Sequence record: ON075799
Origin: Escherichia phage vB_EcoM_TH18
Length of the DNA stretch: 64,000 nt
Reading direction: 5' to 3' (one strand)
Of the stretch, positions 12,131 through 25,683 are shown in pieces. Numbering within the stretch: position 1 is the first letter of the stretch; every line of letters starts with the position of its first letter. A program made the translations under genes and the position numbers. Below the pieces are notes generated by a model. It did no database searches and had not been told where the DNA came from. It saw only the letters and a list, made by a program, of their open reading frames with translations.

Positions 12131-12160
12131 GCCCTGTAGAGAGTGTCTACAGGGCTTTAA
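12131..12160 (+). terminator. hairpin gccctgtag-agagtgt-ctacagggc
   Basis: 9-bp perfect stem; only a weak T-run follows. Confidence 0.35.
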
Positions 12161-12182
12161 TGCTTAATCACAGGACTTACCA

Positions 12183-13013: not shown

Positions 13014-13036
13014 TATTTTATCACTGATATTTGTTT

Positions 13037-13064
13037 TCCCTGTGATATTTTTGTCACAGGGAAA
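13037..13064. repeat. 10-bp-stem hairpin ttccctgtga / tcacagggaa
   Basis: Perfect inverted repeat immediately after the 12183-13013 gene. Confidence 0.5.
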
Positions 13065-13273
13065 GTTTCAATAGTGGATATTTTCTTGATACTTTAAATT
13101 CCTACCAGAAATTTAAATTCTGTAAATTTAGAAAACTATTACTTATAGGCGTTTCGACACAATTTTGTTATGAAAGCCTTGTTTTTATATAAAAACCTGT
13201 TTTAGCATGGGTGGTAGGATCACACTCCATACTACCTTTATTCCTACAGATGAGCATCTCCATGTTCGAAAAC

Positions 13274-13458
13274 TCGGTTCTCGATCGAAAATTCATTTTC
13301 CAGATCGTATTTGCTCCTTACGGAGAAAATTTTTTAGGGCTACAAGTTTCAGTTCTCGATCGGTTTTTCGATTTCAAAATCGTATTTGTTTTTTCTTGCG
13401 AAATTTTTCGCACGCTCAGTTCTCGATCGAGTTTTCAAAATCGAAATCGTATTTGCTC
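13274..13458. repeat. iteron-like direct repeats (three units of about 42 bp containing GTTCTCGATCG ... ATCGTATTTG)
   Basis: Three imperfect direct repeats at about 13274, 13350 and 13417, plus a tgcgaaa/tttcgca palindrome between the second and third. Confidence 0.6.
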
Positions 13459-13860
13459 TATAGTGCGAAAAAATTTTTATGGGTATCATAATTCTATCAC
13501 ACACTTAAACGCAAAGCAACATAAAAATTTTTGTTGAATGATAATCATTCTCATTTGCAGAATGACAGGTAGGATCAGTGTCTTATCCTCCCCCGTTGAC
13601 CATCGTCGCCGTAGTTTGAAGTTTATAGCCGTTCTCGGCTTATCTCTTTGTTAGAGATAGATTACCATAATTGATAAAGAAAGCAAGCGTTAATTGTAAT
13701 CTTTACGTTTCTTTACAAATTTATTTTAGACAAACTACCGGCGATCGACCTTCCAACCAGCGCCCTGGTATGTTAGCCCCGCCTTTACGCCGTGGGGATG
13801 GCGTTGCCTCTTCTGTATGTTAGGCATTATAAGCCCAATCCCTGGGCTTGTCAAACATTT

Positions 13861-14124
13861 TTATTTATTTTCTTGCCAGGTTAGGACACCTAACCAGAAA
13901 TGGCAATCACCTTTCGCCCATTGTGGTATATTGCTTTCTTTCCCACCTTCCCGCGCCCAGGAATAACCGCCCGTGTAACTTTGTAATTGATAACTATCCT
14001 CGACCTTATAATCTGACAGGTTGAGAACTGTTTCTACCTTTAAGCCTGTTGCGCTCGCTACCTGGTGGATAGTTCCCCCTTGCCAGCCTAACGCGTGCAT
14101 AAGGTGCATTGTGGTAGTGGTCAT
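13861..14124 (-). CDS. hypothetical protein (87 aa), possible helix-turn-helix regulator, divergently transcribed
   Basis: AGAGGA ribosome-binding site; own sigma70-like promoter; segment GTIHQVASATGLKVETV weakly resembles a helix-turn-helix. Confidence 0.35.
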   Translation of the reverse strand: MTTTTMHLMHALGWQGGTIHQVASATGLKVETVLNLSDYKVEDSYQLQSYTGGYSWAREGGKESNIPQWAKGDCHFWLGVLTWQENK

Positions 14125-14156
14125 TTTTTCTATTCCTCTGTTAGTTGGTTGTCAGA

Positions 14157-14185
14157 ATTGTATCTATAACCAACCAGGTTAGCAA
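14157..14185 (-). promoter_or_regulatory. sigma70-like promoter (TTGCTA-17-TACAAT) for gene 13861-14124
   Basis: -35 and -10 hexamers with 17-bp spacer on the minus strand. Confidence 0.5.
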
Positions 14186-14220
14186 GATAAATAAAAGAGA
14201 AAAATTTTTTAAAAATACTA

Positions 14221-14249
14221 TTGACAGCTAGATAGTATAGGTCTACTAT
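14221..14249 (+). promoter_or_regulatory. sigma70 promoter (TTGACA-17-TACTAT) with AT-rich upstream element
   Basis: Consensus -35, 17-bp spacer; the upstream A/T tract is nearly identical to the one at 19246-19263. Confidence 0.6.
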
Positions 14250-14303
14250 GTGCACATCAAGGCGATACACCGCCACCAACCAACCTAAAAGGGGTAAATC
14301 AAT

Positions 14304-14927
14304 ATGAAAACCATTGTTAACGCTGAGAATGTATCTTTCGATAAGTTGAACGACGCACAAAAAGAAAAAGCCATTGATCTTATTCGTGAGCGTGAAAGAG
14401 AAAGCGCCGATAATTTCTTTGCGGATAGTGTCATTGAAGACTATAAGAATGACATTTTACCAGAGTACGGGATCGATGACGCGGTTATCTATTGGTCAGG
14501 ATTCTGGTCGCAAGGCGACGGCGCATCTATCAGCACTGATCGCGTGGATATTGAAAAATTTTTAAGAAAAGTTAAATCTTTAACAAAATTTAGAGGTATC
14601 CGCAAACTATTTGATCTTGGTGAATATAGTCAGTTATACGCAAGCATTGAGCGGGATAATTACAGCCGCTACCATCATGAAAATACTGTTTCCGGTTACG
14701 TTGAAACTATGTATTGTGGTGATTTAACGGCAAAACAGGAAGATCTAGCCAATCAGCTTGAAAACTTGTTAACTGAAACGATCCGCGATCTGTCTTGTAA
14801 ACTTTACAGAGATTTAGAATCAGCCTATGATGACCAGTTTACAGATGAAGCCATCACCGAATCAATTGAAGCCAATGATTATCGTTTTGATATTGATGAA
14901 GATGGAGAAGTTTACGCTATCGCTTAA
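14304..14927 (+). CDS. hypothetical acidic protein (207 aa)
   Basis: Ribosome-binding site AAAGGGGTAAAT; strongly D/E-rich. Confidence 0.6.
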   Translation: MKTIVNAENVSFDKLNDAQKEKAIDLIRERERESADNFFADSVIEDYKNDILPEYGIDDAVIYWSGFWSQGDGASISTDRVDIEKFLRKVKSLTKFRGIRKLFDLGEYSQLYASIERDNYSRYHHENTVSGYVETMYCGDLTAKQEDLANQLENLLTETIRDLSCKLYRDLESAYDDQFTDEAITESIEANDYRFDIDEDGEVYAIA

Positions 14928-15014
14928 AAGTACTTGCATTCAGTTTTAAAATAGTATTATACTACTAAAACAGGACGGGGAACTGCTCCCCGTCACATTC
15001 AGGAGATCATCAAA

Positions 15015-15227
15015 ATGGCTAATATTCGCACCTTGTTAAAAAATGCAAAGCAAGTTTTATTTTCCGATCACGATTATTTCAATAAAGACATTACAGGCGT
15101 AAAGAATATCAAAGACGTAAAAAATGTCATGGGTATCTATTGCAATATGAAGCGAGTAGGCACATTTGGCAATAAAGTATTATATCAGGCAGGTGACTAT
15201 AATTTTACTTTGACAATTATTTCATAA
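15015..15227 (+). CDS. hypothetical protein (70 aa)
   Basis: AGGAG ribosome-binding site; preceded by hairpin gacgggga-actgc-tccccgtc. Confidence 0.5.
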   Translation: MANIRTLLKNAKQVLFSDHDYFNKDITGVKNIKDVKNVMGIYCNMKRVGTFGNKVLYQAGDYNFTLTIIS

Positions 15228-15292
15228 AACCACTTGCAAAGTTATATAGCTCTGTTATACTACCAACATTGACAAACGAGAGGTAAATAAAA

Positions 15293-15649
15293 ATGGCAAT
15301 CCAGGCAATCATGTTAGAACTTACAGATTTCCGTAATACTGTAAAAAATTTATCTAAGAAACAGGTTGACAATATCATCAACGGATACCGTAGCAAGATT
15401 AAAGATCTTCCGCTTAAACGCGATCAACATGCGGCTAATATGATGTTTAATGCTATGATTAAAAAGATGATCCAATGTGATCTTTCTCTGGCTTATGAAT
15501 ACGCTGGCGATCTCTTTGCAACGTATAACAAGCCCGTGCTAGGTATGAGCACCACGGAAGAATTACACGCCTTAAATCTGCGGCAAGATGCTTGGGATAA
15601 TATGCACCGCGTTATGGTGTGGGTAGAAAGCGGTAAAATTTATCAATAA
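15293..15649 (+). CDS. hypothetical protein (118 aa)
   Basis: Promoter TTGCAA-16-TATACT at 15235-15262 and ribosome-binding site GAGAGGTAAAT. Confidence 0.55.
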   Translation: MAIQAIMLELTDFRNTVKNLSKKQVDNIINGYRSKIKDLPLKRDQHAANMMFNAMIKKMIQCDLSLAYEYAGDLFATYNKPVLGMSTTEELHALNLRQDAWDNMHRVMVWVESGKIYQ

Positions 15650-15703
15650 AAGTAGTTGACTTTTAGTTATGCCGTGATAGAATACACGGCATAGATAAGA
15701 GAA
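15650..15703 (+). promoter_or_regulatory. 54-bp repeated promoter/operator element, copy 1 (TTGACT ... TAGAAT with the -10 inside an 8-bp-stem palindrome)
   Basis: Direct repeat of 19883-19936 with one mismatch. Confidence 0.6.
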
Positions 15704-15725
15704 ACTACTTATCAGAGTTTAAAAG

Positions 15726-15944
15726 ATGAAAAATATTACGGGTAAAACCGAACTATTAAAGGCGCTTTCTGTTGGTGAGTCAGCTTTATGGGTATGTGAA
15801 AAAGATCGCCTACCATCGCGAGAGATGGCCTTATTTAAGGCTTTATCTCTGAAGCTGAAAATTAAATTATCCCAAAAATTAGCGGTTGTTGCCGCACCGA
15901 GGGAAACCGCTTTCAGTGTTGTAATGGTTAAACGGTTGGAGTAG
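15726..15944 (+). CDS. hypothetical protein (72 aa)
   Basis: Small ORF immediately downstream of repeated promoter copy 1. Confidence 0.5.
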   Translation: MKNITGKTELLKALSVGESALWVCEKDRLPSREMALFKALSLKLKIKLSQKLAVVAAPRETAFSVVMVKRLE

Positions 15945-16030
15945 AAAAAAATTAAAAATTATCTTGACAAGCAAAACAGCAAAAATTAAACTTACACACA
16001 GTTAAACAAACAATATTGACGAGGTAAATC

Positions 16031-16402
16031 ATGAAACAGTTAACCGCTTCCCAAAAAACAATGATCCGTGAGTATGTTTTAAATTCTCTTTCTTTTGATC
16101 TTGAATCTGATCTCAAACAAGATCAGATTCAAGAATTAAAAAACCGCTTTGAATCTGAATACTGGTACGATAGCAACAAGAAACGCTATCAAAATGATAA
16201 AGTACAAGGCCTTAAAAACTGGCTACAAGGCTTGCCAAGCGGTGTTGATATTGATTTCACTTATTACGATATTGAGCAACGCCTTAAGGATTTTGGAATC
16301 ATCACCGACACGACCAGAGAAAGCACCATTGAAAAATATGTTTCTGAGTGGTGGGATCTAGTAGCGCCGTTTTATGTGGGTCTGATCGTAAACTTAAAAT
16401 AA
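16031..16402 (+). CDS. hypothetical protein (123 aa)
   Basis: Promoter TTGACA-17-TAAACT at 15964-15992; ribosome-binding site GAGGTAAAT. Confidence 0.55.
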   Translation: MKQLTASQKTMIREYVLNSLSFDLESDLKQDQIQELKNRFESEYWYDSNKKRYQNDKVQGLKNWLQGLPSGVDIDFTYYDIEQRLKDFGIITDTTRESTIEKYVSEWWDLVAPFYVGLIVNLK

Positions 16403-16479
16403 TTCTTGAAAACTGTTTTAAATTGGCTTAAATTAAAGGGGTGAATTTAATCACCCCCAACATGAAAGAGGTTAATCAA

Positions 16480-16791
16480 ATGAATACTTATTTTTCTACT
16501 CGTTCACTTGCACGCATTGCAGCGAAAGAAACAGGCGGTAAAGTTTTAGACAATGGCAAAGATTCACCGATCGGTAAACGTTGGCAGGTTATCCCCGGTT
16601 ATGTTGTCGAAGCCTCCCAGGATACAGCAAAACAACGCGCGGAGATGGAAAATAAACCAGTAGTTACCTTATCCATCGGCAAGCGTAGCAATGTAGCGAA
16701 TAAAGCCCGTAAGGCGCTTTATTACGCCATCAATTACGCAAGAAATAATAAAACTGTACCAGTTTATCATAAGCGTTCATTTAAGAAATAA
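16480..16791 (+). CDS. hypothetical basic protein (103 aa)
   Basis: Ribosome-binding site AAAGAGGTTAAT before the ATG at 16480. Confidence 0.55.
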   Translation: MNTYFSTRSLARIAAKETGGKVLDNGKDSPIGKRWQVIPGYVVEASQDTAKQRAEMENKPVVTLSIGKRSNVANKARKALYYAINYARNNKTVPVYHKRSFKK

Positions 16792-16861
16792 TTTTTAATT
16801 AGATAAAAAAGCGCCCTAGGAAATGGGCGCTAAACAAAAACACTTAAAGAGGTAAATTATT

Positions 16862-17212
16862 ATGACTAATATTGCAGAAGCTTTTCAAAAAGCTATCGAA
16901 AATAAAAACGCTGAGTTGTCTTTAACTTCTCTGGATTTTACGGATGTGTACGGTAACACTTATTTTGTTTATGAGCTTGCTTTTACTTGTCCTGAGTTAA
17001 AAACATGGGAAACGTTGCATAAATCTCGCGAGCTGCAATATGGTTATGGCGATCATGTTCTTCATGTTGCAATGAAAGACCTTTCAACTATCGCCGAGGT
17101 AAAATCTGAGGCCGCATATATTACCCGTTGGGCGCATGACAACGGCTTAAAAATTAGTGTCAACAAGCGCACCAATTGCCGGAAAAAAGATTTAAAACAG
17201 TTTATCGCTTGA
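16862..17212 (+). CDS. hypothetical protein (116 aa)
   Basis: Ribosome-binding site AAGAGGTAAAT. Confidence 0.55.
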
Positions 17213-17237
17213 TCCTGTTAATCATCTTGGTGGTTGT

Positions 17238-17588
17238 ATGATTCAGTTTTATATAATCATCGCGGCGCTTGCAATTTACTTAGGATTGCACAAAAAAGTA
17301 TTCAGGTTAATTCTCTGGTTTTATTACGAGTACAGGATCAGAATGGTTTTCCATTATATTGAATACTCTTTCCACGGTGAGAGATACCACACAAGGAGAT
17401 CCGGCCCATTAAATGATCTTGAGGGAAACGGTTTAATCTGTGAGGTTAAAAAGCGTGGCGGGAAAATTCTTTACCACAAAGAGGGCACTTTTGATTATAT
17501 TGATGAGGTGATTAATTTTAGGCAACAAGCCGTAAAAGATCACGCAAGCAAAATAATCAACGGCAGCTATAAACGCAAAGCGGGGTAA
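17238..17588 (+). CDS. hypothetical protein with N-terminal transmembrane segment (116 aa)
   Basis: Hydrophobic N-terminus IIIAALAIYLGL. Confidence 0.5.
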   Translation: MIQFYIIIAALAIYLGLHKKVFRLILWFYYEYRIRMVFHYIEYSFHGERYHTRRSGPLNDLEGNGLICEVKKRGGKILYHKEGTFDYIDEVINFRQQAVKDHASKIINGSYKRKAG

Positions 17589-17589
17589 T

Positions 17590-17772
17590 ATGCGGAATTT
17601 TGAAAAAATTGTTAAAGCTAATCGCCTGGAATACGGGGAAACAGACGAAAAACGGGAACGGGTAGGCAAACGCCACAAGCCTAAAAAGGTTCCTAAATTG
17701 TGGTGCCCTGATAAATACGACCACAAATTAAAACAACGCATCGCTGAAAAACAGCGATTAAATGCAAGATAA
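17590..17772 (+). CDS. hypothetical basic protein (60 aa)
   Basis: Lys/Arg-rich ORF followed directly by a terminator. Confidence 0.45.
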   Translation: MRNFEKIVKANRLEYGETDEKRERVGKRHKPKKVPKLWCPDKYDHKLKQRIAEKQRLNAR

Positions 17773-17779
17773 CAGACAA

Positions 17780-17803
17780 GGCCGGAACTATCCGGCCTTT
17801 TTA
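17780..17803 (+). terminator. rho-independent terminator (ggccggaactatccggcc + TTTTT)
   Basis: GC-rich hairpin immediately followed by a T-run. Confidence 0.7.
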
Positions 17804-17991
17804 GCACCTAGTAGCGCCTGTAACGATTAAAAAGGCCAACGGTGGCATGATGCACCACAAAATAAAATAGCTCGTTAGAGAGTGTTTTAGAGGCCTTAAA
17901 ATCGATCCGAAAAATATCTATAAAAATGCTTGCAATGCTTTCCCGCTATCGTTATAGTGTTCCCAACAAGCAAGCAAACGAGGTAACGGCA

Positions 17992-18129
17992 ATGATTGAG
18001 ATTCTTAAAAATCCTATTTTGTGTGGTATGGTTGTTTCTGTGTCACTTCCGATCGTGCTGTTAGTCGTTAGCGAAATAGATGATTTTATTTTCAATAAAA
18101 GACTTGCCAACAAGTCAAAAACAAATTAA
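17992..18129 (+). CDS. small membrane protein (45 aa)
   Basis: Promoter TTGCAA-17-TATAGT upstream; ribosome-binding site CGAGGTAA; hydrophobic core. Confidence 0.35.
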   Translation: MIEILKNPILCGMVVSVSLPIVLLVVSEIDDFIFNKRLANKSKTN

Positions 18130-18166
18130 TATAGTACCAACATACTAACTAGCGAGGTGATTTAAT

Positions 18167-18385
18167 ATGTTTGGTTTTATTGTTCTATCTTGTTCTCTTT
18201 CTGTTACTGCTGCAAAGGTAGAATGTAACTACACTGTAAAAGAGACTTTTAATGATGAAAAGTCTTGCAATGTATACGAAAATAATTATAAACTAGGAGA
18301 CGGGGAGCAGTTCGGGATCTGTGATGAATTAAAGGACGGTATCAAGAAAGGCGATAAGCGCCCGATCTTGGTCCTGAAAAAATAA
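18167..18385 (+). CDS. small secreted or periplasmic protein (72 aa, signal-peptide-like N-terminus, 4 Cys)
   Basis: N-terminal hydrophobic segment ending in AAK; ribosome-binding site GCGAGGTGAT. Confidence 0.5.
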   Translation: MFGFIVLSCSLSVTAAKVECNYTVKETFNDEKSCNVYENNYKLGDGEQFGICDELKDGIKKGDKRPILVLKK

Positions 18386-18426
18386 TTTTTCTAATCATGT
18401 TGATCAATTTTTAAGAGGTGAATAAA

Positions 18427-18714
18427 ATGTTTGAAGTTTTCGCGGGTATGTGTTTTTATACAGCTTTGGCAATTCGTCAGTGTGATGATTATATCGTTGA
18501 ATCATACGATGATCAGCTGACTTGCGAAATAGTCGCTAATGACTACGGCAAAAAAGATCGCTGGATTAATCCGGCTTGCATACCATCCCCAGAGGTAGAA
18601 GCCATGCCGGAAGGGGAAGAGGTATCAGATCCAGTTGTGGCGGTATCCTCCTTTTTCGTTGACAACCTGGACGCCCAAGAATTGATCGACATGTATGTAA
18701 AAAATCAAAAATAA
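18427..18714 (+). CDS. hypothetical protein (95 aa)
   Basis: Ribosome-binding site AAGAGGTGAAT before the ATG at 18427. Confidence 0.5.
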   Translation: MFEVFAGMCFYTALAIRQCDDYIVESYDDQLTCEIVANDYGKKDRWINPACIPSPEVEAMPEGEEVSDPVVAVSSFFVDNLDAQELIDMYVKNQK

Positions 18715-18716
18715 CG

Positions 18717-18754
18717 CTTGACGTTGATTTGTGCCGCTTTATAATAGGCGGCAT
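18717..18754 (+). promoter_or_regulatory. sigma70 promoter TTGACG-17-(T)ATAAT with the -10 inside the palindrome tgccgc...gcggca
   Basis: Hexamers plus a 6-bp inverted repeat flanking the -10. Confidence 0.5.
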
Positions 18755-18804
18755 AGGCAAGCGAAAGCGGATATAAATCTTAAACAAGTTAAGAGAGGTA
18801 AATC

Positions 18805-19125
18805 ATGGAACAAGCGAATAAATTTTTCTTTCTGGCTGGGATCGTGGATAATGTGAAATGTGATTTCAAGCGTGAAAATGATAAGACGTTACTCACTTTC
18901 TGCGATATGCTTGATCATGAGAATGCCGACACGTTACGAATCGAGATCCGCACGATAACCAATATCGACAATTTAAGCCGTTTAATTTATAAATCTCATT
19001 CTATAGCCTACAACCTGGAAACATCAACAAGCTGCCTCCAACAAGGAGAGAGCTTGCCCATTCTAAATAGTGCCGATGTATTTGGCGCGGTTGTTGCAAT
19101 TGTAAATGATGTTTTTTCTCGTTGA
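18805..19125 (+). CDS. hypothetical protein (106 aa)
   Basis: Ribosome-binding site AGAGAGGTAAAT. Confidence 0.5.
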   Translation: MEQANKFFFLAGIVDNVKCDFKRENDKTLLTFCDMLDHENADTLRIEIRTITNIDNLSRLIYKSHSIAYNLETSTSCLQQGESLPILNSADVFGAVVAIVNDVFSR

Positions 19126-19263
19126 TTGGTGTTAATATTATGTTAGAGAATATTGTGTTCTTGTGTGGTGTCGTTCTTGCTGTTGTGGTTGGCCTCCTGG
19201 CGACGATGGCGAATATTGTGATCTCAAACAACCTGGCAGGGTAAAAATTTTTAAAAATAGTAT

Positions 19264-19291
19264 TGACATACTTGCGGCATATGGTATTATT
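19264..19291 (+). promoter_or_regulatory. sigma70 promoter (TTGACA-16/17-TATTAT) with repeated AT-rich upstream element
   Basis: The upstream A/T tract plus -35 nearly duplicates 14199-14226. Confidence 0.6.
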
Positions 19292-19341
19292 TACCACATG
19301 AAGGGGCAAGATTGACTTGCCTCACTAACGAAAGGTAAATA

Positions 19342-19611
19342 ATGATGAACATTTCTAAAACTACTTTTAACTTTGCTAAAAAGCGCGGTATTGAGCTTGA
19401 GCTGATCGAAGCGGATGATCGCTTGGTCCTGGCTTTTTATGAGGCTAAAAATGAATGTGAATGGATGTTCTCTTATAATGTTAATCATGATTGCCTAACA
19501 TGGCGCGGCAATATCTATCTTTCAAACGAAGTAAAAGAGGAGTTACCCGCCACGATCACGACTGAGAAAAAACTACGTGAGGTTATTGATTTCATCTCTA
19601 AAAATATCTAA
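19342..19611 (+). CDS. hypothetical protein (89 aa)
   Basis: Ribosome-binding site GAAAGGTAAAT. Confidence 0.5.
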   Translation: MMNISKTTFNFAKKRGIELELIEADDRLVLAFYEAKNECEWMFSYNVNHDCLTWRGNIYLSNEVKEELPATITTEKKLREVIDFISKNI

Positions 19612-19658
19612 GATTACATGAAAAGGGGCGAAAGCCCCTACCGAAGAAGGTAATAAAA

Positions 19659-19883
19659 ATGGATAAAGTAACAAAGATTGAGCATGAGGTAATTGACTTG
19701 GCACGGGCCAACAAGCCATTTGATAAGATTTATTCTAAGGAGAATAAAGAGATCTTGAAAGACCTAACGCAAGGTCAAAAAGATGGCTTGCGCCGCTTAT
19801 ATCGTGAGGCGTATGACTATTTTCGTTGGTGGGAAATAGAAGAGGCTAACGCGAAAATAGAAGGCCTAGAAAATTTAGTATAA
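19659..19883 (+). CDS. hypothetical protein (74 aa)
   Basis: Ribosome-binding site GAAGGTAAT; preceded by hairpin gggcgaaagcccc. Confidence 0.5.
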   Translation: MDKVTKIEHEVIDLARANKPFDKIYSKENKEILKDLTQGQKDGLRRLYREAYDYFRWWEIEEANAKIEGLENLV

Positions 19884-19936
19884 AAGTAGTTGACTTTTAG
19901 TTATGCCGTGATAGAATGCACGGCATAGATAAGAGA
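19883..19936 (+). promoter_or_regulatory. 54-bp repeated promoter/operator element, copy 2
   Basis: Direct repeat of 15650-15703 with one mismatch. Confidence 0.6.
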
Positions 19937-19978
19937 GACGGCACAAGCCATTGATTAAACTTAAAGAGGTAAATTATT

Positions 19979-20380
19979 ATGAATACTTACAAAACTGTTT
20001 TTAATTTCGACAATTTCAAAGCTATCTGCGACGACCAGATCGGCAAGTGCCGTAAAGAAAAAGGATTCTATAAATCTTATAAGTTGATTGCGGTTGTTGA
20101 TGAAGAGATCACCGAAGTGGCAACGCTCAACCTGTACCACACTAACGCTACTAATTACGCTTGCTTATGGATGCACTGGGCCAATATTAAAGGTTGGGAT
20201 CATGGCTATGTTGGCGGGAAAGCAAGCGGATACGGTTACAACAGGGAGGAGGCCGCGATCCATGTCGCAGCTAATAAACTCGGTATCACTGGCAACTGGT
20301 TTAACGGTGAACAATTGTTAGATGCAATGGCACGTAATTTTGATATGAAAGGCGCGAAGGTTATCTGCTGCAACGCGTGA
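19979..20380 (+). CDS. hypothetical protein (133 aa)
   Basis: Ribosome-binding site AAAGAGGTAAAT. Confidence 0.55.
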   Translation: MNTYKTVFNFDNFKAICDDQIGKCRKEKGFYKSYKLIAVVDEEITEVATLNLYHTNATNYACLWMHWANIKGWDHGYVGGKASGYGYNREEAAIHVAANKLGITGNWFNGEQLLDAMARNFDMKGAKVICCNA

Positions 20381-20427
20381 TCACTCAATAGCGGGGAATA
20401 TTCCCCGCTTATAGATAGGGCATAATC

Positions 20428-20886
20428 ATGATTTACGATCTTAAATATTACGACGAATTGAGTATTGCAGCACAATTAACCGCCCGTGTCAATATTATAG
20501 CAGACCTGGAAAATCACCATAGAAAGCGCATAGTCCAGACTATAGCCAGTTTTAAAAATGATCCTCATAAAGTGATTAATGACACGAAGCACATTCAACG
20601 CCTCATAAACGGCGCAAAGACGCTTTATAGTGTACGTCATTACGGGGATGATTACCTTATAAAGTTTATTCGTGATAATCGTTTGATCTTTACCCCTGGT
20701 GGTAGCTATATAACCTATAGCGACGGCTTTATGATGATTATTGGAGGTAAGGAATACACCCCCACGGCCTCACAACAAAAAGCATTGAGAGAGCTTTATA
20801 TAGCCATTAATGAGCGTGGTCAATCATATCATGATTGGTTATATAGAATGCACCACAAAATAAAAATTTTTATGATTCCCGCTTGA
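20428..20886 (+). CDS. hypothetical protein (152 aa)
   Basis: ORF preceded by hairpin ggggaatattcccc. Confidence 0.55.
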   Translation: MIYDLKYYDELSIAAQLTARVNIIADLENHHRKRIVQTIASFKNDPHKVINDTKHIQRLINGAKTLYSVRHYGDDYLIKFIRDNRLIFTPGGSYITYSDGFMMIIGGKEYTPTASQQKALRELYIAINERGQSYHDWLYRMHHKIKIFMIPA

Positions 20887-20964
20887 CACCTACATAAAAA
20901 CGCCTTATTATCTATCTCATAAGGCGGGGAGCGGTTCCCCGCCACACTTAAGAGGTAAATAATC

Positions 20965-21354
20965 ATGCGTAACCTGGTTCATGTTTCCAACGTTGAAAAA
21001 TTCCAATCTTTACAGGCTATCGTAAACGATACAGCGCCTTTTATCGTTAAAGGCTTGATTGCCAGAATGCAACAGAAAAAACCTGAAATCTGGGCTAATT
21101 ATTGCCTTGATAATGATGATCAGGCTGCCGCTTTCATGGTTGGCGAACTGCTGGGAAGTGTAGGGAACATGCTACCGGAAAACATCGCAGAAGAGATCAC
21201 CTACCGTTATAATATGGCGATAACTTATCAGGAAGTCGCACAATTTAACCTGATGGATGACGACGAACAACAGGATCAGGAAATTTTCTGGGAGTATGCC
21301 GACCGCCAAGCCGTTTTTGATGAGCGGTTAGAGATGTACTATAACGAATGGTAA
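20965..21354 (+). CDS. hypothetical acidic protein (129 aa)
   Basis: Promoter TTGACA-17-TATTAT at 20883-20911; ribosome-binding site TAAGAGGTAAAT. Confidence 0.55.
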   Translation: MRNLVHVSNVEKFQSLQAIVNDTAPFIVKGLIARMQQKKPEIWANYCLDNDDQAAAFMVGELLGSVGNMLPENIAEEITYRYNMAITYQEVAQFNLMDDDEQQDQEIFWEYADRQAVFDERLEMYYNEW

Positions 21355-21359
21355 TAAAC

Positions 21360-21389
21360 AGGCCGCTAATATGCGGCCTTTAATTTTTC
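21360..21389 (+). terminator. rho-independent terminator (aggccgc-taatat-gcggcct + T-run)
   Basis: Hairpin followed by TTTAATTTTT. Confidence 0.65.
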
Positions 21390-21450
21390 TATTGACAATA
21401 TCGCACTAACCTTTAAAATGTTCTTTGTTAAGTATCTTTAAAGGTGTAAC

Positions 21451-21630
21451 ATGTTCCAATCAATCATTGATATTCTATCAGTCGCTAATAACGTGATGAA
21501 CGTAATTACAATGATTAAACTTGTTGCGTGGTTTGTTTCCGGGGATTATCGCTATATTAAATGGCGCAAGCCAACCATAAAAGACGTAGTGAAGATCTCA
21601 TTTGAAGCAATGACAGAATATTATCTATAA
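21451..21630 (+). CDS. hypothetical small protein (59 aa; below the ORF-track cutoff)
   Basis: Promoter TTGACA-16-TAAAAT at 21393-21420, ribosome-binding site AAAGGTG, and an open frame translated by hand. Confidence 0.35.
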   Translation: MFQSIIDILSVANNVMNVITMIKLVAWFVSGDYRYIKWRKPTIKDVVKISFEAMTEYYL

Positions 21631-21986
21631 CGATTATTTTTTGTTGACATCCAAAAGATTTTTCAATACCATTGATCACATAAGGGCGGCAATGATGCTG
21701 CCCACAACTGAAAGAGAAATCACCATGGCGCTTAAAAAACTAACAAGTAATACACGTTGGGATGAAATCGGCGGGGAAGTATACATTTTTACCCGTAAAC
21801 CAGGTGACCAAAAATGATCAAAGGCTTTTACTTGCCACCCTGCAACCATAGACCTGATAAAAAGGGAAGGTTTACGCGAAGCAGTAGCAAGAAGTTTACT
21901 GATCCCTTATAAAAAATAGTTTGAAATTAATTTCACTATTGATAAAATATTATATAAAACTTTAACCTAAAAAGGGGTAAATTAAT

Positions 21987-22187
21987 ATGAAACGTTTTAC
22001 TTATGGTGTGGTTGATGGTTATGTATCTAACCGTTTTTACAATACCGAGCGTGGTGCTAAAAATGCGGCTACCCGTGAACATGGCAATAGTGTAAATTTA
22101 CAAGTTGGCTATATTAGCAAAATTAGCGGTATGTTTATTCCGGTTGCTCAACGCGGCATGTATTGCATAAACTGGATGCCAATGTAA
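21987..22187 (+). CDS. hypothetical protein (66 aa)
   Basis: Ribosome-binding site AAAAGGGGTAAAT. Confidence 0.5.
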   Translation: MKRFTYGVVDGYVSNRFYNTERGAKNAATREHGNSVNLQVGYISKISGMFIPVAQRGMYCINWMPM

Positions 22188-22202
22188 AAAGGAGTAATAA
22201 AA

Positions 22203-22394
22203 ATGGATGTATCACAAGTTAGAAAGGTATTAGCAGCGTTACGCTATCACAATCATAGCAAGGTGAAGAATGATCCTGATTATGTTGATTCAAGTCTGGA
22301 GGAAGACACCTTGCAAGCTATAAGCCATATGCAGGAATTGCTTAAGCGTATGACAGAGAAGAACAGATCTGACTATATAGGTGACGAGATCTAA
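22203..22394 (+). CDS. hypothetical protein (63 aa)
   Basis: Ribosome-binding site AAAGGAGTAAT. Confidence 0.5.
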   Translation: MDVSQVRKVLAALRYHNHSKVKNDPDYVDSSLEEDTLQAISHMQELLKRMTEKNRSDYIGDEI

Positions 22395-22490
22395 TCTTTA
22401 CAATCTCGCCTATTGACACCGGATCACGCTTACATTATTATCTATCTTGTAGGGCAAGCAATACCGCAAGCCCACAAAGAGGACAATAAA

Positions 22491-22859
22491 ATGAGCAAAT
22501 CAGCAATTAAAGCACTTGAAAAAGCGCAAAAAGTGATCGCTACTTCCACCACTGGCGCAAGTATTAATCTGATCGCTTACTTGGAAGATGAAACTATCCG
22601 TAAAAATTGGCGTAATACTGATTTGCTGGCTTGCTTATTGATTAATAGTGTTGCTAATGCTTTCCAGTGTGAAACAGCCGAGAGCCTGGAAGAAAACTTG
22701 TTTGACAATATGGATCAAGCCATTGAAACCTATATCCAATCAAATCTGGATAGCTGGAACAGTAAAACATGGCCCGACAGCTTACGCGATACAACTGACC
22801 AACTGATCCGCCTTGCGGTGATGGTTGAACGCGATAACGTTTACAGCCGCACAAAGTAA
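22491..22859 (+). CDS. hypothetical protein (122 aa from internal ATG)
   Basis: Promoter TTGACA-17-TATTAT at 22415-22443; ribosome-binding site AAGAGGA before the ATG at 22491. Confidence 0.55.
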   Translation: MSKSAIKALEKAQKVIATSTTGASINLIAYLEDETIRKNWRNTDLLACLLINSVANAFQCETAESLEENLFDNMDQAIETYIQSNLDSWNSKTWPDSLRDTTDQLIRLAVMVERDNVYSRTK

Positions 22860-22867
22860 GATAGTAC

Positions 22868-22897
22868 AAAGGGCGCTTAATGCGCCCTTTCTTTTTG
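22868..22897 (+). terminator. rho-independent terminator (aagggcgc-ttaa-tgcgccctt + T-run); end of the plus-strand module
   Basis: Hairpin followed by TCTTTTTG. Confidence 0.7.
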
Positions 22898-22929
22898 CCC
22901 TAACAAACATGATAAGTTTTATCTATCAA

Positions 22930-23230
22930 AACACCACACAGAAAGAAAGTGAATAAAACGCGGTATCGAGCTAAACGAGGGTGGGCAATACAACGGCAAG
23001 GCTAAACAATTAAGGCTGTTATAACGCGATTTAGGCCGCTTAAAATCGATCCCCACCACAAACAACACCCACAAAATGACCAAAACGACACAACATGACT
23101 TAAATGATAACCATTCCCAACAACATAAGCATTTTTATGCAATTTGAGTGAATATCTATTTAAATGATAATGACTCTCAACAACAAACTAACACGACCGA
23201 AGCGATTCAATCGCCTACCACAAAATTAAT
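22930..23230. repeat. C/A-rich, G-poor tract with repeated CACCACA(C)A motifs and a 28-bp imperfect direct repeat (about 23098 and 23158)
   Basis: Motifs read from sequence; reverse-complement orientation of the TGTGTGG motifs at 24044-25283. Confidence 0.5.
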
Positions 23231-23284
23231 CACTTGTAAAGAGTAATTTGAAAAAAGCTGCGTAGGTGGCGCGACCGTAGGGAG

Positions 23285-23361
23285 CGACACAATAACGCAG
23301 TAGTAGCCCCTCACCCCTCCTTCCAGTCGCCCCCGGTATCGGGGCAGCGTTATTGTGTCGC
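23285..23361. repeat. 15-bp perfect inverted repeat (gcgacacaataacgc / gcgttattgtgtcgc) around a 47-nt C-rich loop
   Basis: Exact reverse-complement match read from the sequence. Confidence 0.8.
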
Positions 23362-23373
23362 TAAGCGACAACG

Positions 23374-23437
23374 CGTTAACAATTTTGCAAGATTTTATTA
23401 ATACTTTAACTGTTATAATTTTATTGCAAAATTGTTA
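23374..23437. repeat. 16-bp perfect inverted repeat (gttaacaattttgcaa / ttgcaaaattgttaac), 32-bp spacer
   Basis: Exact reverse-complement match read from the sequence. Confidence 0.8.
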
Positions 23438-23444
23438 ACCTACT

Positions 23445-23555
23445 GCGTTATTGTGTCACGTAGTGATTAGTTACATATGTAACTAACAGCTATCACTGCA
23501 AAATTGTGTCACGTAGTGATTAGCTGAGAATCAGCTAACCCGTAAAACGGGCTAA
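23445..23555. repeat. direct repeat ATTGTGTCACGTAGTGATTAG (two copies), each followed by a palindrome (ttagttacatatgtaactaa; agctgagaatcagct), then cccgtaaaacggg
   Basis: Exact repeats and palindromes read from the sequence. Confidence 0.75.
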
Positions 23556-23799
23556 ATTGTGTCCGGTACGGATGAGATAATCTCTCATTAATCCCCGATT
23601 ATTACGCAGTAAATCACCATGAATCACCTGTTTTTAACCCTGTTATTGTGTTCTTGCCCAGGGATAACCGCTTACTATGCGGTTAAATGCTGTATAGTCG
23701 CTACGCGATTAAGCGCGATGCGCTTAACCTGCAAAGCAGGCTTCTAAGTGCCTGAAATGCCAGATCAATTTGGTCACTGCGTGATCATGATTGCGACAA

Positions 23800-23995
23800 T
23801 AATTTGCTTATGATTTGCTATTTATTTGTTTGTAGTTGGTTATAGTTGTTATGGTTTGTTTGTTAATAGTTGCTATAATTTTGCTTTATTTGATTTTATT
23901 TGTTAAACACCCTTTTATCATTCCTCTTACATTTTCGCAATATTTATTTTTGTTATCGTTTTCCCTCATTTCATTTCGTTATTGAAAACAAGAAT
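23800..23995. repeat. AT-rich tract of short phased T/G-rich repeats (GTTAT, TTTGTT)
   Basis: Composition; possible DNA-unwinding or bending element. Confidence 0.4.
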
Positions 23996-24043
23996 TATTA
24001 TCAATGCGCCTTAACAGGCTGACAGGTCTGTTAGTGGGCTAGC

Positions 24044-25283
24044 TCTCTGTGTGGTTATGTGTCGGCTGTTATTGTTAGCTTGCTTATTGTTGTGTGGTGT
24101 ATGTACCAGTTAACTAGTACATTGTGTGGTGCGCATAACGTGTATTATGTTAAATCGCTAAGCCCACAAATCAGGTGACTTGTCAATAACAATAAGTGCT
24201 GTGTGCGGTAGGTCTGACCTATCAGTGTGCCCCTTTGTTGTGTGGTGCTTCCAATGGCTGGTCTGCCTGCTGTCTGTGCTGCGTCAGGAATCGAGGGGAC
24301 TCGATCGCAATAGCTGTAAGATATTTTGTAAAGATTCGTAGTTTTTCTTGACACCCACAATCGTCTGCCTAACCCTTCAGAGATAAATACTTCAGAGATT
24401 TATCTGGGCTTTTTACCCTTCAGGTATAGAGACGTGTGTTTTATCCCTCACTTCTGAGATAAAGCCGTAGATATTTTCACTCTTCACATCATGTGCAAGT
24501 TAATACATGTATGTCTTTACAGACGGGGTGGGGTAACAATCAGGAAGTGGTCTGGCAGTGATAACGCACTGGATAAAAGCTCTGTGTGGATTGTCGATGA
24601 TATTTGTGTGTGTGGGAAATGCTGATAGGCAAGAGATAAGACACTTGTCTCCGGCAGGGGTGGGGTGTGGAAAAGAAATGGGCCTGTCCGACCCATTGTG
24701 TTACAGAGATGAAACGCCTATCTCACCATTGACCAGGTAAGCCAATATCAAGGCCAAATTCGTGACATTCATCCCAGTCAAGACTTTGATTCCAGTTTGT
24801 AACTGTTTGCTCTGTGTGGTGGGTGTGTGATGCTCTCTGTGACTGCTTGGGCATCTTTTTTGTCTGGGATTTCCCGAAGAGAGGTGTGTTGTCATTAAGT
24901 CTTCCGGCAGCCTTTTCACCCTTTTTGACTTGTCTCCCACGGGCATTCCACTGCTCCAGTGTCCTGTAACACATAAAATGATTCTCCTGTAATATCTGGT
25001 GTGGGAATGATAGTGGAGAATGTCAGTCGTGTCAAGTAGGTTGCTCAGAGGCGCTATTATAAAAATTTTTTGGTGGCTTTCTGGGGCTTGTTGTGGGACT
25101 GTAAACAAGCTGTGGAGCCAGATGTGACGGGGCTTTCAGCCATGTTGTGTGTTGATAGCAAATAAGGATAAAATAATCAATATAAATGCGGATAAATGTT
25201 GTTTTATTGCGGTTGTGTGACTAGTGTGTCAATTCTTGATAGGCTATGTCTTGTACATATTTTGTACAATTGTGTGGTGTGTG
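24044..25283. repeat. dispersed same-orientation TGTGTGG(T)(G) motif, at least 7 copies
   Basis: Copies at about 24044, 24087, 24121, 24235, 24580, 24810 and 25268; no convincing ORFs in the region. Confidence 0.6.
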
Positions 25284-25365
25284 GAGTTTGGGTGGCAATT
25301 CCCCAGACGGGGTAGGGTAGGTTATGGTGGGGAGCAGGGGCATGGTTAGCCCCATATGATCAGGG

Positions 25366-25683
25366 TTATGCGTCTGTTTGTTTGAACTGGTCTTTTGAAC
25401 GTATTATATAGCTGCATCCGTATTTTCTTAGCCAGACAAGTTCCCATGGACTATCACTCAGGTTCTTCCTGTTTATCTCTTTTAGCTGGGCAACCGCATC
25501 GTCCCATGATGTGACTTCGAGATAACCGATAAGACAGTCCTCTCCAAAATCTCCGTAATCAAATGTGCATCTGACCTTGGCGATAAACTCTGTTTGTGGG
25601 CTTGTTGGTTTTACAAAAGCCCGGTGAAAGATTTGTTCTGTGCAGTGCTCATTAACCCATCTGATTTGTGTGGTCATAATCAC
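25366..25683 (-). CDS. hypothetical protein (105 aa); last gene of the leftward block
   Basis: ORF; hairpin ggggctaaccatgcccc downstream. Confidence 0.5.
   Translation of the reverse strand: MIMTTQIRWVNEHCTEQIFHRAFVKPTSPQTEFIAKVRCTFDYGDFGEDCLIGYLEVTSWDDAVAQLKEINRKNLSDSPWELVWLRKYGCSYIIRSKDQFKQTDA

What the first reader, a model, noticed from the sequence alone, without database searches (positions are those of the whole stretch)
22930..25350. 2.4-kb non-coding convergence zone with CA-rich / TGTGTGG repeats in mirror orientation on either side of the palindrome core
The plus-strand module ends at a terminator (22868-22897) and the minus-strand block ends at 25366. Between them the left arm is C/A-rich and G-poor on the plus strand (CACCACACA motifs, 22930-23230) and the right arm is its mirror image, with at least 7 TGTGTGG copies on the plus strand (24044-25283). 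Both converging transcripts would therefore carry C-rich, G-poor 3' tails, the composition expected of Rho-utilisation sites. That points to paired Rho-dependent terminators. Alternatives are a bidirectional origin, a packaging recognition region or an injection-control region.
Basis: partly seen in the sequence, partly recalled or inferred. Interest (0 to 1): 0.7.

Follow-up and report, generated by a model that had tools for sequence, protein, structure and literature searches.

The report
Phage genome ends carrying dif site
This 2.5-kb gap between converging gene blocks is most likely where the phage chromosome begins and ends: it holds a predicted ~464-bp terminal repeat with a near-perfect copy of the host's XerC/XerD "dif" recombination site at its centre, which no paper in the searched library describes for these lytic phages.

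Summary
The window comes from an rV5-like myophage (Vequintavirinae, closest to Av-05). The zone and the TGTGTGG excess are real: 9 of 19 plus-strand copies, against 0.8 expected from composition. The zone is not fully non-coding, and the left-arm "CACCACACA" motifs are weak.

The zone is homologous to regions that hold the mapped short direct terminal repeats (DTRs) of four relatives: LL12, Gotham, KPP-1 and phi92. The mapped DTR boundaries of LL12, Gotham and KPP-1 fall in the same alignment columns, on conserved motifs. Those motifs place this phage's DTR at 23906-24369 (464 bp). The "paired Rho terminator" reading is therefore not the main explanation.

The centre of the DTR (24128-24155) reads GGTGCGCATAA-CGTGTA-TTATGTTAAAT. 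This matches E. coli dif at 26 of 28 positions, and both 11-bp arms are perfect. The site is present in 247 phage records, mostly Vequintavirinae genera. The XerD arm is invariant in every lineage examined and the 6-bp centre varies by lineage. I found no paper in the searched library describing this.

Inferred, not shown: host XerCD recombines the two dif copies on the injected linear genome to circularise it, or joins or resolves genomes. The role of the TG-rich arms is unresolved.

The parts
22868..22897 (+). Intrinsic terminator ending the plus-strand gene block
   Evidence: Nine-pair stem with 6 G-C pairs plus a T run. Conserved in Av-05 and phi92.
22902..23062 (.). Conserved non-coding element at the start of the left arm
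   Evidence: About 80% identical over 79 nt in many of the 101 matching records, mostly phi92-like phages. Window 22870-23181 aligns to phi92 with E = 8e-29. Positions 22959-23042 also match the pre-early region of the T5-like phage FFH_1. No RNA structure is supported.
22930..23230 (+). A/C-rich, G-poor part of the left arm, with two TTAAATGATAA boxes (23100-23125 and 23160-23185)
   Evidence: Composition. Repeat family D10. Only one CCACACA is present.
23283..23600 (.). Cluster of five GACACAAT boxes, nested inverted repeats and box-plus-hairpin modules spaced 53 bp apart
   Evidence: Five of the 7 GACACAAT copies in the window lie here. Folding z = -10.9. Every box in this phage and Av-05 is followed by a hairpin; these use six different stem sequences, and one orthologous pair shows two compensatory changes. 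KPP-1 and phi92/BME3 carry similar inverted repeats at the same relative place, by inspection.
23694..23745 (.). 52-nt module of three hairpins that sits at a different place in Av-05
   Evidence: 100% identical to Av-05 L001 8513-8564, while the surrounding sequence is about 85% identical.
23795..23905 (.). T-rich array with TTG in helical phase, ending at the predicted repeat boundary
   Evidence: TTG recurs mostly every 9-11 bp (two intervals are split 4+6 and 4+10) from 23804 to 23900. Tandem periods of 9-11. GC falls to 24%. By inspection, LL12 has a GACAC array and phi92/BME3 have TATTTGTTG repeats at the same boundary.
23906..24369 (.). Predicted direct terminal repeat (464 bp), the physical ends of the virion DNA
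   Evidence: Window 24129-24381 aligns to KPP-1 across its mapped boundary (E = 2e-9). Boundary motifs TTGYTA|AACAC and GTCYGYC|TRRC sit in the same columns as the mapped boundaries of KPP-1, LL12 and Gotham. The rule returns 514 and 459 bp for KPP-1 and LL12, as published (this partly restates its derivation, since the motifs came from those two), and 464 bp here.
24128..24155 (+). dif-like XerC/XerD site: GGTGCGCATAA CGTGTA TTATGTTAAAT
   Evidence: 26 of 28 positions match E. coli dif, and both 11-bp arms are identical (dif sequence from PMC3025954). A 36-nt query hits 5421 of 5426 E. coli genomes, once per genome at the median; in the one strain inspected the hit lies next to hipBA. Present in 247 phage records. 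Single copy in the window, with no matches in shuffles.
24320..24335 (+). Conserved 16-mer GATATTTTGTAAAGAT, 34 nt inside the right repeat boundary
   Evidence: Identical, and at the same offset from the dif block (191-193 nt) and the boundary, in Avunavirus, Mydovirus and Seunavirus loci.
24372..24466 (+). Three 19-nt repeats (ACCCTTCAGAGATAAATAC type) just outside the right boundary
   Evidence: Repeat family D6. Relatives carry their own short repeats at this position: CACCATCTG twice in KPP-1 (families D5/D17) and GGAGTGCT twice in LL12 by inspection.
24044..25284 (+). Nine TGTGTGG copies (24048, 24091, 24123, 24239, 24583, 24609, 24813, 25271, 25278). Four lie inside the predicted repeat, and one overlaps the XerC arm of the dif site.
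   Evidence: The same strand bias for TGTGG/GTGTG appears in the right arm of every Vequintavirinae locus examined. Four of the 9 copies are conserved in place in Av-05.
24677..25035 (-). Self-contained small gene: promoter 25035-25007, ORF 24974-24723 (83 aa), terminator 24697-24677
   Evidence: TTGACA-17-TATCAT promoter (11/12) and terminator. phrog_25175 at E = 1e-36. 91.6% amino-acid identity to Av05_0046, with homologues of the N-terminal motif in Mydovirus and other phages. Weak ArdC-N-like hit, below Pfam's cut-off.
25240..25365 (-). C-rich, G-poor untranslated tail after the last minus-strand gene, a candidate Rho loading site
   Evidence: Plus-strand counts for 25200-25399 are G 66 and C 25, so the minus-strand RNA would be C-rich. 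No intrinsic terminator was found here. Untested.
24520..24535 (+). G-run motif CAGACGGGGTGGGGTA, first of three copies (also 24652-24667 and 25304-25319)
   Evidence: Repeat family D8. By inspection, relatives carry a CCCC..GGGG hairpin 100-150 nt outside this boundary.

Best explanation
The zone is the genome-end region (concatemer junction) of an rV5-like lytic myophage.

Layout. Positions 23906-24369 are a direct terminal repeat (DTR) of about 464 bp. It is present once per junction in replicating DNA and at both ends of the packaged chromosome. Terminase cuts at two conserved boundary motifs. The repeat is then duplicated, as in T7-type packaging.

Flanking signals. The left arm carries a helically phased TTG array, GACACAAT box-plus-hairpin modules and nested inverted repeats. 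Short repeats lie just outside the right boundary. These are the likely recognition and processing signals.

The dif site. The centre of the repeat is a canonical 28-bp dif site, so each injected linear genome carries two dif sites in direct orientation. I infer that host XerC/XerD recombines them. This could circularise the incoming genome, or join or resolve genomes, without homologous recombination. Phage P1 uses Cre-lox in its terminal redundancy in a comparable way.

The arms. The TG-rich and CA-rich asymmetry of the arms is a conserved property of this terminus region. Its function is not resolved.

What is shown: homology to mapped termini, the boundary motifs, and the identity and conservation of the dif site. 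What is inferred: the exact ends in this phage, any use of the site by XerCD, and the roles of the repeat arrays.
For: Identity of the phage. The zone is 81-88% identical to Av-05 (Vequintavirinae, Avunavirus).

Mapped termini in relatives:
- Gotham: a linear record with identical 459-bp repeat_regions at both ends.
- KPP-1: a 514-bp DTR shown by two-fold coverage and PhageTerm, lying in its convergence zone (PMC9862379).
- phi92: annotated 343-bp DTRs. The conserved left-arm element lies about 1 kb upstream of DTR-R.

Homology and boundaries:
- The window aligns with KPP-1 across the repeat and one boundary (E = 6e-16 and 2e-9).
- The independently mapped boundaries fall in the same alignment columns.
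- The right-boundary motif occurs exactly once, 233-235 nt (189-190 nt in Vequintavirus) from the start of the dif block, in 14 loci.
- The boundary rule gives the published lengths for KPP-1 and LL12. This partly restates its derivation, because the motifs were defined on those two phages.
- By my reading of the match coordinates, the KP12 and Pr121LW records start exactly at a predicted boundary.

The dif site:
- 26 of 28 positions match published E. coli dif, and both arms are perfect.
- The same sequence is the single-copy chromosomal site; in the one strain inspected it lies next to hipBA.
- It occurs in 247 phage records, mostly across Vequintavirinae genera.
- The XerD arm is invariant, the XerC arm shows 0-2 changes, and the 6-bp centre varies by lineage while the flanks diverge.
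- None of the 19 large window ORFs scanned is a tyrosine recombinase, so any use would depend on the host enzymes.
Against: - No virion-end data exist for this phage or for Av-05. The ends are placed by homology only.
- One Vequintavirus report infers headful packaging from PhageTerm (PMC13211470).
- The left boundary of this phage lacks the inverted copy of the 16-mer/TTGAC element seen in Mydovirus and Seunavirus.
- A Keio screen of LL12 found only LPS genes to be required and does not mention xer genes. Xer is therefore not essential for plaque formation in the laboratory (PMC7229145).
- Recombination at dif normally needs activation by FtsK (from memory). The zone has one KOPS octamer, and it does not point at the site.
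- phi92-like phages have the same terminus layout without a dif site. The site is therefore not needed for this packaging mode.
Confidence: 0.8

Rival explanations
1. Paired Rho-dependent terminators. The C-rich, G-poor tails of the two converging transcripts load Rho, and the zone exists mainly to stop convergent transcription.
For: RNA from 23000-23199 (plus strand) would carry 49 C and 24 G. RNA from 25200-25399 (minus strand) would carry 66 C and 25 G. No intrinsic terminator follows the stop codon at 25366. The rV5 authors also found no terminators at this convergence (PMC3606486).
Against: A strong, conserved intrinsic terminator already ends the plus-strand block. The skew extends over more than 1 kb and across an independent gene. 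phi92 keeps the right-arm skew although its genes there read away from the repeat. This reading does not explain the homology to mapped termini, the dif site or the boundary motifs.
Confidence: 0.12
2. Replication origin. The GACACAAT boxes act as iterons for an initiator, and the adjacent 24%-GC stretch is the unwinding element. This could coexist with the terminus.
For: Five boxes lie within 280 bp, three of them spaced 53 bp apart. An AT-rich stretch lies at 23800-23990. Cumulative GC skew has a local minimum near 23650. From memory, each box contains GTGTC, a T7-type primase recognition sequence, and rV5 encodes a gp4-like primase-helicase.
Against: There is no cluster of DnaA boxes (one match, at the chance level). 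Genes converge on the zone rather than diverging from it. The skew is too large to be mutational. The AT-rich array ends exactly at the predicted cut site, which fits a packaging signal equally well.
Confidence: 0.2
3. This phage packages by headful from a pac site and has no fixed terminal repeat. The homologous sequences would be relics.
For: One Vequintavirus paper reports a PhageTerm call of headful packaging. Av-05 is deposited as a circular record.
Against: Four relatives in three genera and two subfamilies have mapped fixed repeats at the homologous place. Both boundary motifs, the 16-mer and their spacing are intact in the window.
Confidence: 0.06

Closest known systems
Short direct terminal repeats of rV5-like and phi92-like myophages (LL12, Gotham, KPP-1, phi92, BME3)
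   Same: The position is the same: a 1.8-3 kb non-coding zone, between convergent blocks in Vequintavirinae. The boundary motifs, the internal 16-mer and the dif block are homologous, and the length is similar (343-514 bp).
   Different: The ends have not been mapped for this phage. Its repeat arrays are lineage-specific (TTG array, CTTCAGAG repeats), and it has many more TGTGTGG copies. phi92-like phages lack the dif site.
Phage T7 concatemer junction (terminal repeat duplicated during packaging; hairpin intermediate)
   Same: A short non-permuted repeat, repeat arrays beside it and inverted repeats next to it. PhageTerm classes KPP-1 as T7-type. The T7 hairpin model is summarised in PMC4281155.
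   Different: The phage family is unrelated and there is no phage RNA polymerase. The repeat is three times longer. T7 has no Xer site. Whether the inverted repeats here act as a hairpin primer is untested.
E. coli chromosomal dif and plasmid Xer sites (cer, psi)
   Same: A 28-bp site with an 11-bp XerC arm, a 6-bp centre and an 11-bp XerD arm. Both arms are identical to E. coli dif.
   Different: The centre is CGTGTA rather than TGTATA. The site lies on a lytic phage inside a terminal repeat. There are no convergent KOPS. No cer- or psi-type accessory region has been demonstrated.
Phage P1 Cre-lox cyclisation of terminally redundant DNA (from memory)
   Same: A site-specific recombination site lies inside the terminal redundancy, so the injected linear DNA carries two direct copies that can be recombined into a circle.
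   Different: P1 encodes its own recombinase and is temperate. Here the enzymes would be host XerCD, and the phage is lytic. Cyclisation has not been shown.
Mobile elements that exploit Xer (CTX-phi, VGJ-phi, TLC-phi, gokushovirus prophages)
   Same: A virus carrying a dif-like site recognised by the host XerCD (PMC3025954; PMC7062461).
   Different: Those elements are small, temperate or chronic, and use the site to integrate at host dif. Their sites often have longer centres and degenerate XerD arms. This is a ~120-kb lytic myophage (size taken from the closest relative, Av-05) with a canonical site.

Membership tests
Short-DTR genome terminus of Vequintavirinae/Stephanstirmvirinae | Lies in the large non-coding zone after the small-gene block | tested here: met
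   The layout matches LL12, KPP-1, rV5 and phi92.
Short-DTR genome terminus of Vequintavirinae/Stephanstirmvirinae | Sequence homology to mapped repeats, including both boundaries | tested here: met
   Alignments and boundary motifs.
Short-DTR genome terminus of Vequintavirinae/Stephanstirmvirinae | The same sequence is physically present at both ends of the virion DNA | not testable with these tools
   This needs virion reads or run-off sequencing. The window holds only one copy.
Xer recombination site (dif family) | 11-bp XerC arm, 6-bp centre and 11-bp XerD arm matching the host consensus | tested here: met
   26 of 28 positions match, and both arms are 11/11.
Xer recombination site (dif family) | Arms conserved, with the XerD arm more conserved than the XerC arm, and the centre free to vary | tested here: met
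   The XerD arm is invariant in all loci, the XerC arm shows 0-2 changes, and four different centres occur. The general pattern for dif sites is described in PMC3025954.
Xer recombination site (dif family) | Bound and recombined by XerC/XerD | not testable with these tools
   No experiment was possible. The LL12 Keio screen reports no xer dependence.
Xer recombination site (dif family) | KOPS converging on the site, as at chromosomal dif | tested here: not met
   There is one GGGNAGGG in the zone (25310, plus strand), and it points away from the adjacent site.
Rho-dependent terminator | Untranslated C-rich, G-poor RNA stretch of about 80 nt or more | tested here: met
   23000-23199 on the plus strand and 25200-25399 on the minus strand.
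Rho-dependent terminator | Termination depends on Rho, and no intrinsic terminator already does the job | tested here: inconclusive
   The plus side has a strong intrinsic terminator and the minus side has none directly after 25366. Rho dependence itself cannot be tested here.
Iteron-type replication origin | Repeated initiator sites next to an AT-rich unwinding element | tested here: met
   Five GACACAAT boxes and a 24%-GC stretch.
Iteron-type replication origin | A cluster of DnaA boxes, or demonstrated initiation | tested here: not met
   One TTWTNCACA match in the zone, at the chance level. Origin activity cannot be tested here.
Chi-protected DNA end | GCTGGTGG near the ends in the active orientation | tested here: not met
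   No Chi site anywhere in the window.

The most novel reading that the evidence does not exclude
Lytic Vequintavirinae phages place a canonical host dif site at the centre of each terminal repeat. They use host XerCD to circularise, or to join or resolve, their linear genomes without homologous recombination. This would be a use of the Xer system by large virulent tailed phages that the searched literature does not describe. It would be a host-enzyme counterpart of Cre-lox cyclisation in phage P1.
Probability: 0.35. Interest if true: 0.8.

Novelty: new variant of a known kind. Interest (0 to 1): 0.62.

Why it matters
Placing the zone as the genome terminus is useful but ordinary, because relatives already have mapped repeats there. 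Three things are not ordinary.

- Family-wide cut-site motifs with fixed spacing let the ends of unmapped Vequintavirinae genomes be predicted from sequence alone.
- Many candidates for phage therapy and biocontrol (rV5, PVP-SE1, Klebsiella Mydovirus phages) carry a perfect-armed host dif site in their terminal repeats. This raises a directly testable question: does a strictly lytic phage recruit the host's chromosome-dimer resolution enzymes, and for what purpose?
- The answer matters in three areas. It affects how linear phage DNA escapes RecBCD. It affects the safety assessment of these phages, since they could in principle recombine with the host chromosome at dif. It also matters for engineering them.

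Tried and rejected
- T5-like injection-stop region. This was my first guess, from the tRNA cluster and the repeats. I dropped it once BLAST showed a Vequintavirinae phage. Only an 84-nt element is shared with a T5-like phage.
- Orientation error. I first read KPP-1 and LL12 in the same orientation as the window. One search showed they are inverted, and all boundary mapping was redone.
- Rfam search of the zone. Only two chance-level miRNA hits.
- RNA structure for the conserved element 22898-23062. No covariation support.
- DnaA boxes. No cluster.
- Fur box. None within 4 mismatches inside the zone, although phi92's repeat has a 17/19 match.
- Chi. None.
- KOPS. Not enriched and not convergent on the dif site.
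- Sigma-70 promoters. Apart from the one at 25035-25007, counts are at the chance level.
- Contig ends in IMG/VR and metagenome assemblies as a proxy for termini. Uninformative, because contigs break at the repeated dif block instead.
- A phage-encoded tyrosine recombinase. None among the 19 large ORFs scanned.
- Solved-structure search for the 83-aa protein. No hit.
- A second copy of the zone in the window. None.
Full report
**What the window is**

The zone is 100% identical to three partial "Escherichia phage" records. It is 81-88% identical to Escherichia phage Av-05 (Vequintavirinae, Avunavirus).

The gene layout is as follows:
- a minus-strand block from 1 to 9500, with 15 tRNA genes;
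- a plus-strand block of small genes from 9816 to 22859;
- the zone from 22860 to 25365;
- a minus-strand block from 25366 to the end of the window.

The large ORFs of the last block encode ribonucleotide reductases, PhoH, a ligase, Sir2, an RNA ligase and similar functions. This gene set is what I expect of rV5-like phages (from memory).

**Checking the observation**

Most of the description holds.
- The terminator at 22868-22897 and the ORF end at 25366 are as stated.
- TGTGTGG occurs nine times on the plus strand in 24048-25284, out of 19 plus-strand copies in the window. Binomial P is 1e-8. Dinucleotide shuffles of the segment give 0.8 ± 0.8 copies, with a maximum of 4.
- Base composition is mirrored between the two arms. 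Positions 23000-23199 have C 49 and G 24. Positions 25000-25399 have G 126 and C 48.

Three corrections are needed.
- The left arm has only one CCACACA.
- The zone contains a real small gene, described below.
- The palindromic core is off-centre relative to the architecture.

**What organises the zone: the genome ends**

The literature and GenBank annotations place short direct terminal repeats (DTRs) in the homologous zone of relatives.
- LL12 (V5-like). [quoted passage not shown] Its zone is 2.5 kb long.
- Gotham. The record is linear, with identical 459-bp repeat_regions at both ends.
- KPP-1 (Mydovirus). A 514-bp repeat at 116,316-116,829 is shown by two-fold coverage and PhageTerm (PMC9862379). 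It lies between converging blocks.
- phi92. The RefSeq record annotates 343-bp DTR-L and DTR-R. BME3 has a 342-bp repeat (PMC12210895).
- rV5. The genome paper drew an unexplained "non-coding" box and found no terminators at this convergence (PMC3606486).

The window is in the same orientation as phi92. Window 22870-23181 aligns to the sequence just after phi92's last gene (E = 8e-29).

The window is inverted relative to the KPP-1, LL12 and rV5 records:
- window 22909-23305 aligns to KPP-1 L004 6701-6322 (E = 6e-16);
- window 24129-24381 aligns to KPP-1 L004 5556-5305 (E = 2e-9), and this alignment crosses the mapped KPP-1 boundary.

I aligned 17 loci: the window, Av-05, KPP-1, LL12 and 13 IMG/VR contigs that include PVP-SE1. 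The independently mapped boundaries of KPP-1 and LL12 fall in the same columns.
- One boundary is GTCCGYC|TRGCA. The window reads GTCTGCC|TAACC.
- The other is TGCTA|AACAC, or GTGTCA|GACAAG in Vequintavirus. The window reads TTGTTA|AACAC.

Gotham's physical record ends sit exactly on these motifs. The right-boundary motif occurs exactly once per locus. It starts 233-235 nt from a conserved core block in Avunavirus, Mydovirus and Seunavirus, and 189-190 nt from it in Vequintavirus.

The motif rule returns 514 bp for KPP-1 and 459 bp for LL12, as published. This partly restates its derivation, because the motifs were defined on those two phages. It gives 453 bp for Av-05, 515-516 bp for PVP-SE1-like phages and 464 bp for the window, at 23906-24369.

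By my reading of the coordinates against the offsets, the KP12 and Pr121LW records begin exactly at one of the predicted boundaries. HdK5 and bov25_3 start at the same offset as Gotham.

This is placement by homology. No virion-end data exist for this phage.

**Anatomy around the repeat**

Just left of the predicted boundary, TTG recurs mostly every 9-11 bp from 23804 to 23900, in a stretch where GC falls to 24%. By inspection, LL12 has a phased GACAC array at the same boundary, and phi92 and BME3 have TATTTGTTG repeats there.

Further left, 23283-23600 holds five of the window's seven GACACAAT boxes. It also holds nested perfect inverted repeats (I1, I4, I5) and three modules spaced 53 bp apart. 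The region folds far better than shuffled sequence (z = -10.9).

Every box in this phage and in Av-05 is followed by a hairpin that starts inside the box. The hairpins use six different stem sequences. One orthologous pair differs by two compensatory changes: GTCAC/GTGAT in the window against GTCCG/CGGAT in Av-05. That pattern points to selection on nucleic-acid structure rather than on a protein half-site. The sample is small.

By inspection, KPP-1 and phi92/BME3 carry similar inverted repeats at the same relative position: AGCGACACAATAAC... in KPP-1 and GCTAATAATAACGCA... in phi92/BME3.

Inside the repeat, the 16-mer GATATTTTGTAAAGAT lies 34 nt from the right boundary in three genera. Just outside that boundary are three 19-nt CTTCAGAG-type repeats. 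Relatives have their own short repeats at that place.

These arrays are the obvious candidates for terminase recognition. By analogy with the T7 hairpin model (PMC4281155), they may also serve duplication of the repeat. Neither role is shown.

**The unexpected part: a dif site**

The conserved core block, extended by one base, is GGTGCGCATAA CGTGTA TTATGTTAAAT at 24128-24155. Published E. coli dif is GGTGCGCATAATGTATATTATGTTAAAT (PMC3025954). The match is 26 of 28 positions. Both 11-bp arms are identical, and the only two differences lie in the 6-bp centre.

Several results support this identification.
- A 36-nt query around the site hits 5421 of 5426 complete E. coli genomes, once per genome at the median. 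In the one strain inspected, the hit lies in an unannotated gap just downstream of hipBA. From memory, that is where dif lies.
- The site is single-copy in the window.
- It is present in 247 phage records, mostly across Vequintavirinae genera. Two-DTR records such as Gotham carry it twice.
- The XerD arm is invariant in all lineages examined. The XerC arm shows 0-2 changes. The centre differs by lineage (CGTGTA, TGGGTA, TAGGTA, CGTGTT), while the flanks are unalignable between genera.

This is the conservation pattern described for genuine dif sites, and it excludes a neutral relic.

The site is absent from the phi92, BME3 and DE16 zone segments. None of the 19 large window ORFs scanned is a tyrosine recombinase.

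Five literature searches, plus a term search of the rV5 paper, found no paper that links Xer or dif with these phages. The library does not hold most subscription journals, so earlier mention cannot be excluded.

**How the dif site might work**

This section is inference. A packaged genome has one dif site in each terminal repeat, in direct orientation. XerCD recombination between them would give a circle with one repeat, plus a repeat-sized linear fragment. Recombination between molecules would give head-to-tail multimers.

Either outcome would remove or protect the DNA ends without RecA. Cre-lox does this for phage P1 (from memory).

Four points weigh against the idea.
- The LL12 Keio screen found only LPS genes to be required.
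- From memory, dif recombination normally needs FtsK.
- The single KOPS octamer in the zone does not point at the site.
- phi92-like phages manage without the site.

I put the probability that the site is used productively by XerCD at about 0.35-0.5.

**The small gene**

ORF 24974-24723 (minus strand, 83 aa) has the following features:
- a TTGACA-17-TATCAT promoter and its own terminator;
- a match to phrog_25175 at E = 1e-36;
- 91.6% amino-acid identity to Av05_0046;
- an N-terminal motif shared with many Mydovirus and other phages;
- a weak resemblance to the ArdC N-terminal domain, at 19 bits against a cut-off of 22.6.

**The TG-rich and CA-rich arms**

The bias of TGTGG/GTGTG over its complement in the right arm is 26:0 here. 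Every Vequintavirinae locus examined shows the same direction, for example 17:1 in Av-05, 10:0 in LL12 and 8:1 in KPP-1.

Only four of the nine copies are conserved in place in Av-05, which has gained another copy. Density is maintained rather than position.

phi92 keeps the G>C skew (0.30) even though its genes there read away from the repeat. That argues against a purely Rho-related role. Chi is absent. I cannot assign a function to the arms.

**Rivals**

- Rho-dependent termination just downstream of 25366 remains plausible as a local add-on.
- An origin in the box and AT-rich region cannot be excluded and could coexist with the terminus.
- Headful packaging is unlikely, because the boundary motifs are intact.

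**Verdict**

The zone is the genome-end region. As such it is a new member of a known kind. It carries a family-wide dif site that makes it a new variant worth testing.

Noticed in passing
window 9901-9978 (+) and about 63882-63959 (-): A 78-nt stretch is repeated, by inspection identically, in inverted orientation. It covers the leader and first codons of two ORFs (9816-10373 plus strand, 63452-63889 minus strand) and includes a TGTGTGG.
   Followed up: partly
window 22902-23062: A non-coding element is conserved in phi92-like and Phapecoctavirus phages (about 80% identity). Part of it (22959-23042) also occurs in the pre-early region of the T5-like phage FFH_1, near gene A2. No RNA structure is supported, and its function is unknown.
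   Followed up: partly
window 23694-23745; Av-05 L001 8513-8564: A 52-nt module of three hairpins is 100% identical between the two phages but sits at different positions in the left arm. Av-05 also has one extra 53-bp box-plus-hairpin unit. The modules appear to shuffle.
   Followed up: partly
L041, L044, L047, L048, L053, L054, L056 (metagenome and Pseudomonas/Pantoea contigs): The near-dif 27-mer (exact consensus GTGCGCATAATGTGTATTATGTTAAAT in 15 loci, one substitution in others) occurs in unrelated contexts. In seven loci an ORF of one shared family lies downstream, starting 160-700 nt away in five of them. The L041 member scores as Phage_integrase (28.6 bits). These look like a separate kind of dif-associated mobile element.
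   Followed up: partly
L011 1240-1460 (261-kb IMG/VR contig): By inspection, three dif-like blocks (one inverted) lie within about 150 nt, flanked by three TGTGGATAA (DnaA-box-like) sequences and preceded by a TG-rich array. The scan recovered two of them at 6 mismatches or fewer.
   Followed up: no
phi92 L007 74-92 and L006 4344-4362 (inside its DTR): GTAAATGATAATCATTATC matches the Fur-box consensus at 17 of 19 positions. Similar AT-rich palindromes recur in the KPP-1 and BME3 zones. The window's zone has none within 4 mismatches.
   Followed up: partly
window 24101-24122: A palindrome ATGTACCAGTTAACTAGTACAT lies 5 nt upstream of the XerC arm. From memory it closely resembles the E. coli trp operator (CTAGTTAACTAGTAC). 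It is less perfect in Av-05, and no counterpart was evident in the other genera.
   Followed up: no
phage records MZ501112 (WildeMaa, 60 kb) and PP627280 (SHIN8, 58 kb): These ~60-kb coliphage records, whose sizes set them apart from the 120-150-kb Vequintavirinae genomes, also carry a dif-like match (88% over 33 nt), so dif-like sites may occur in other coliphage groups.
   Followed up: no
BME3 record PP239276, both ends (L002, L003): The deposited record repeats about 830 bp of the terminus region and contains Ns. The annotated DTR is not at the record ends. This looks like an assembly artefact.
   Followed up: no
window 22413-22859: The last plus-strand ORF (148 aa, phrog_15368) has no counterpart in Av-05. 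There the zone follows the homologue of 22203-22394 directly.
   Followed up: no
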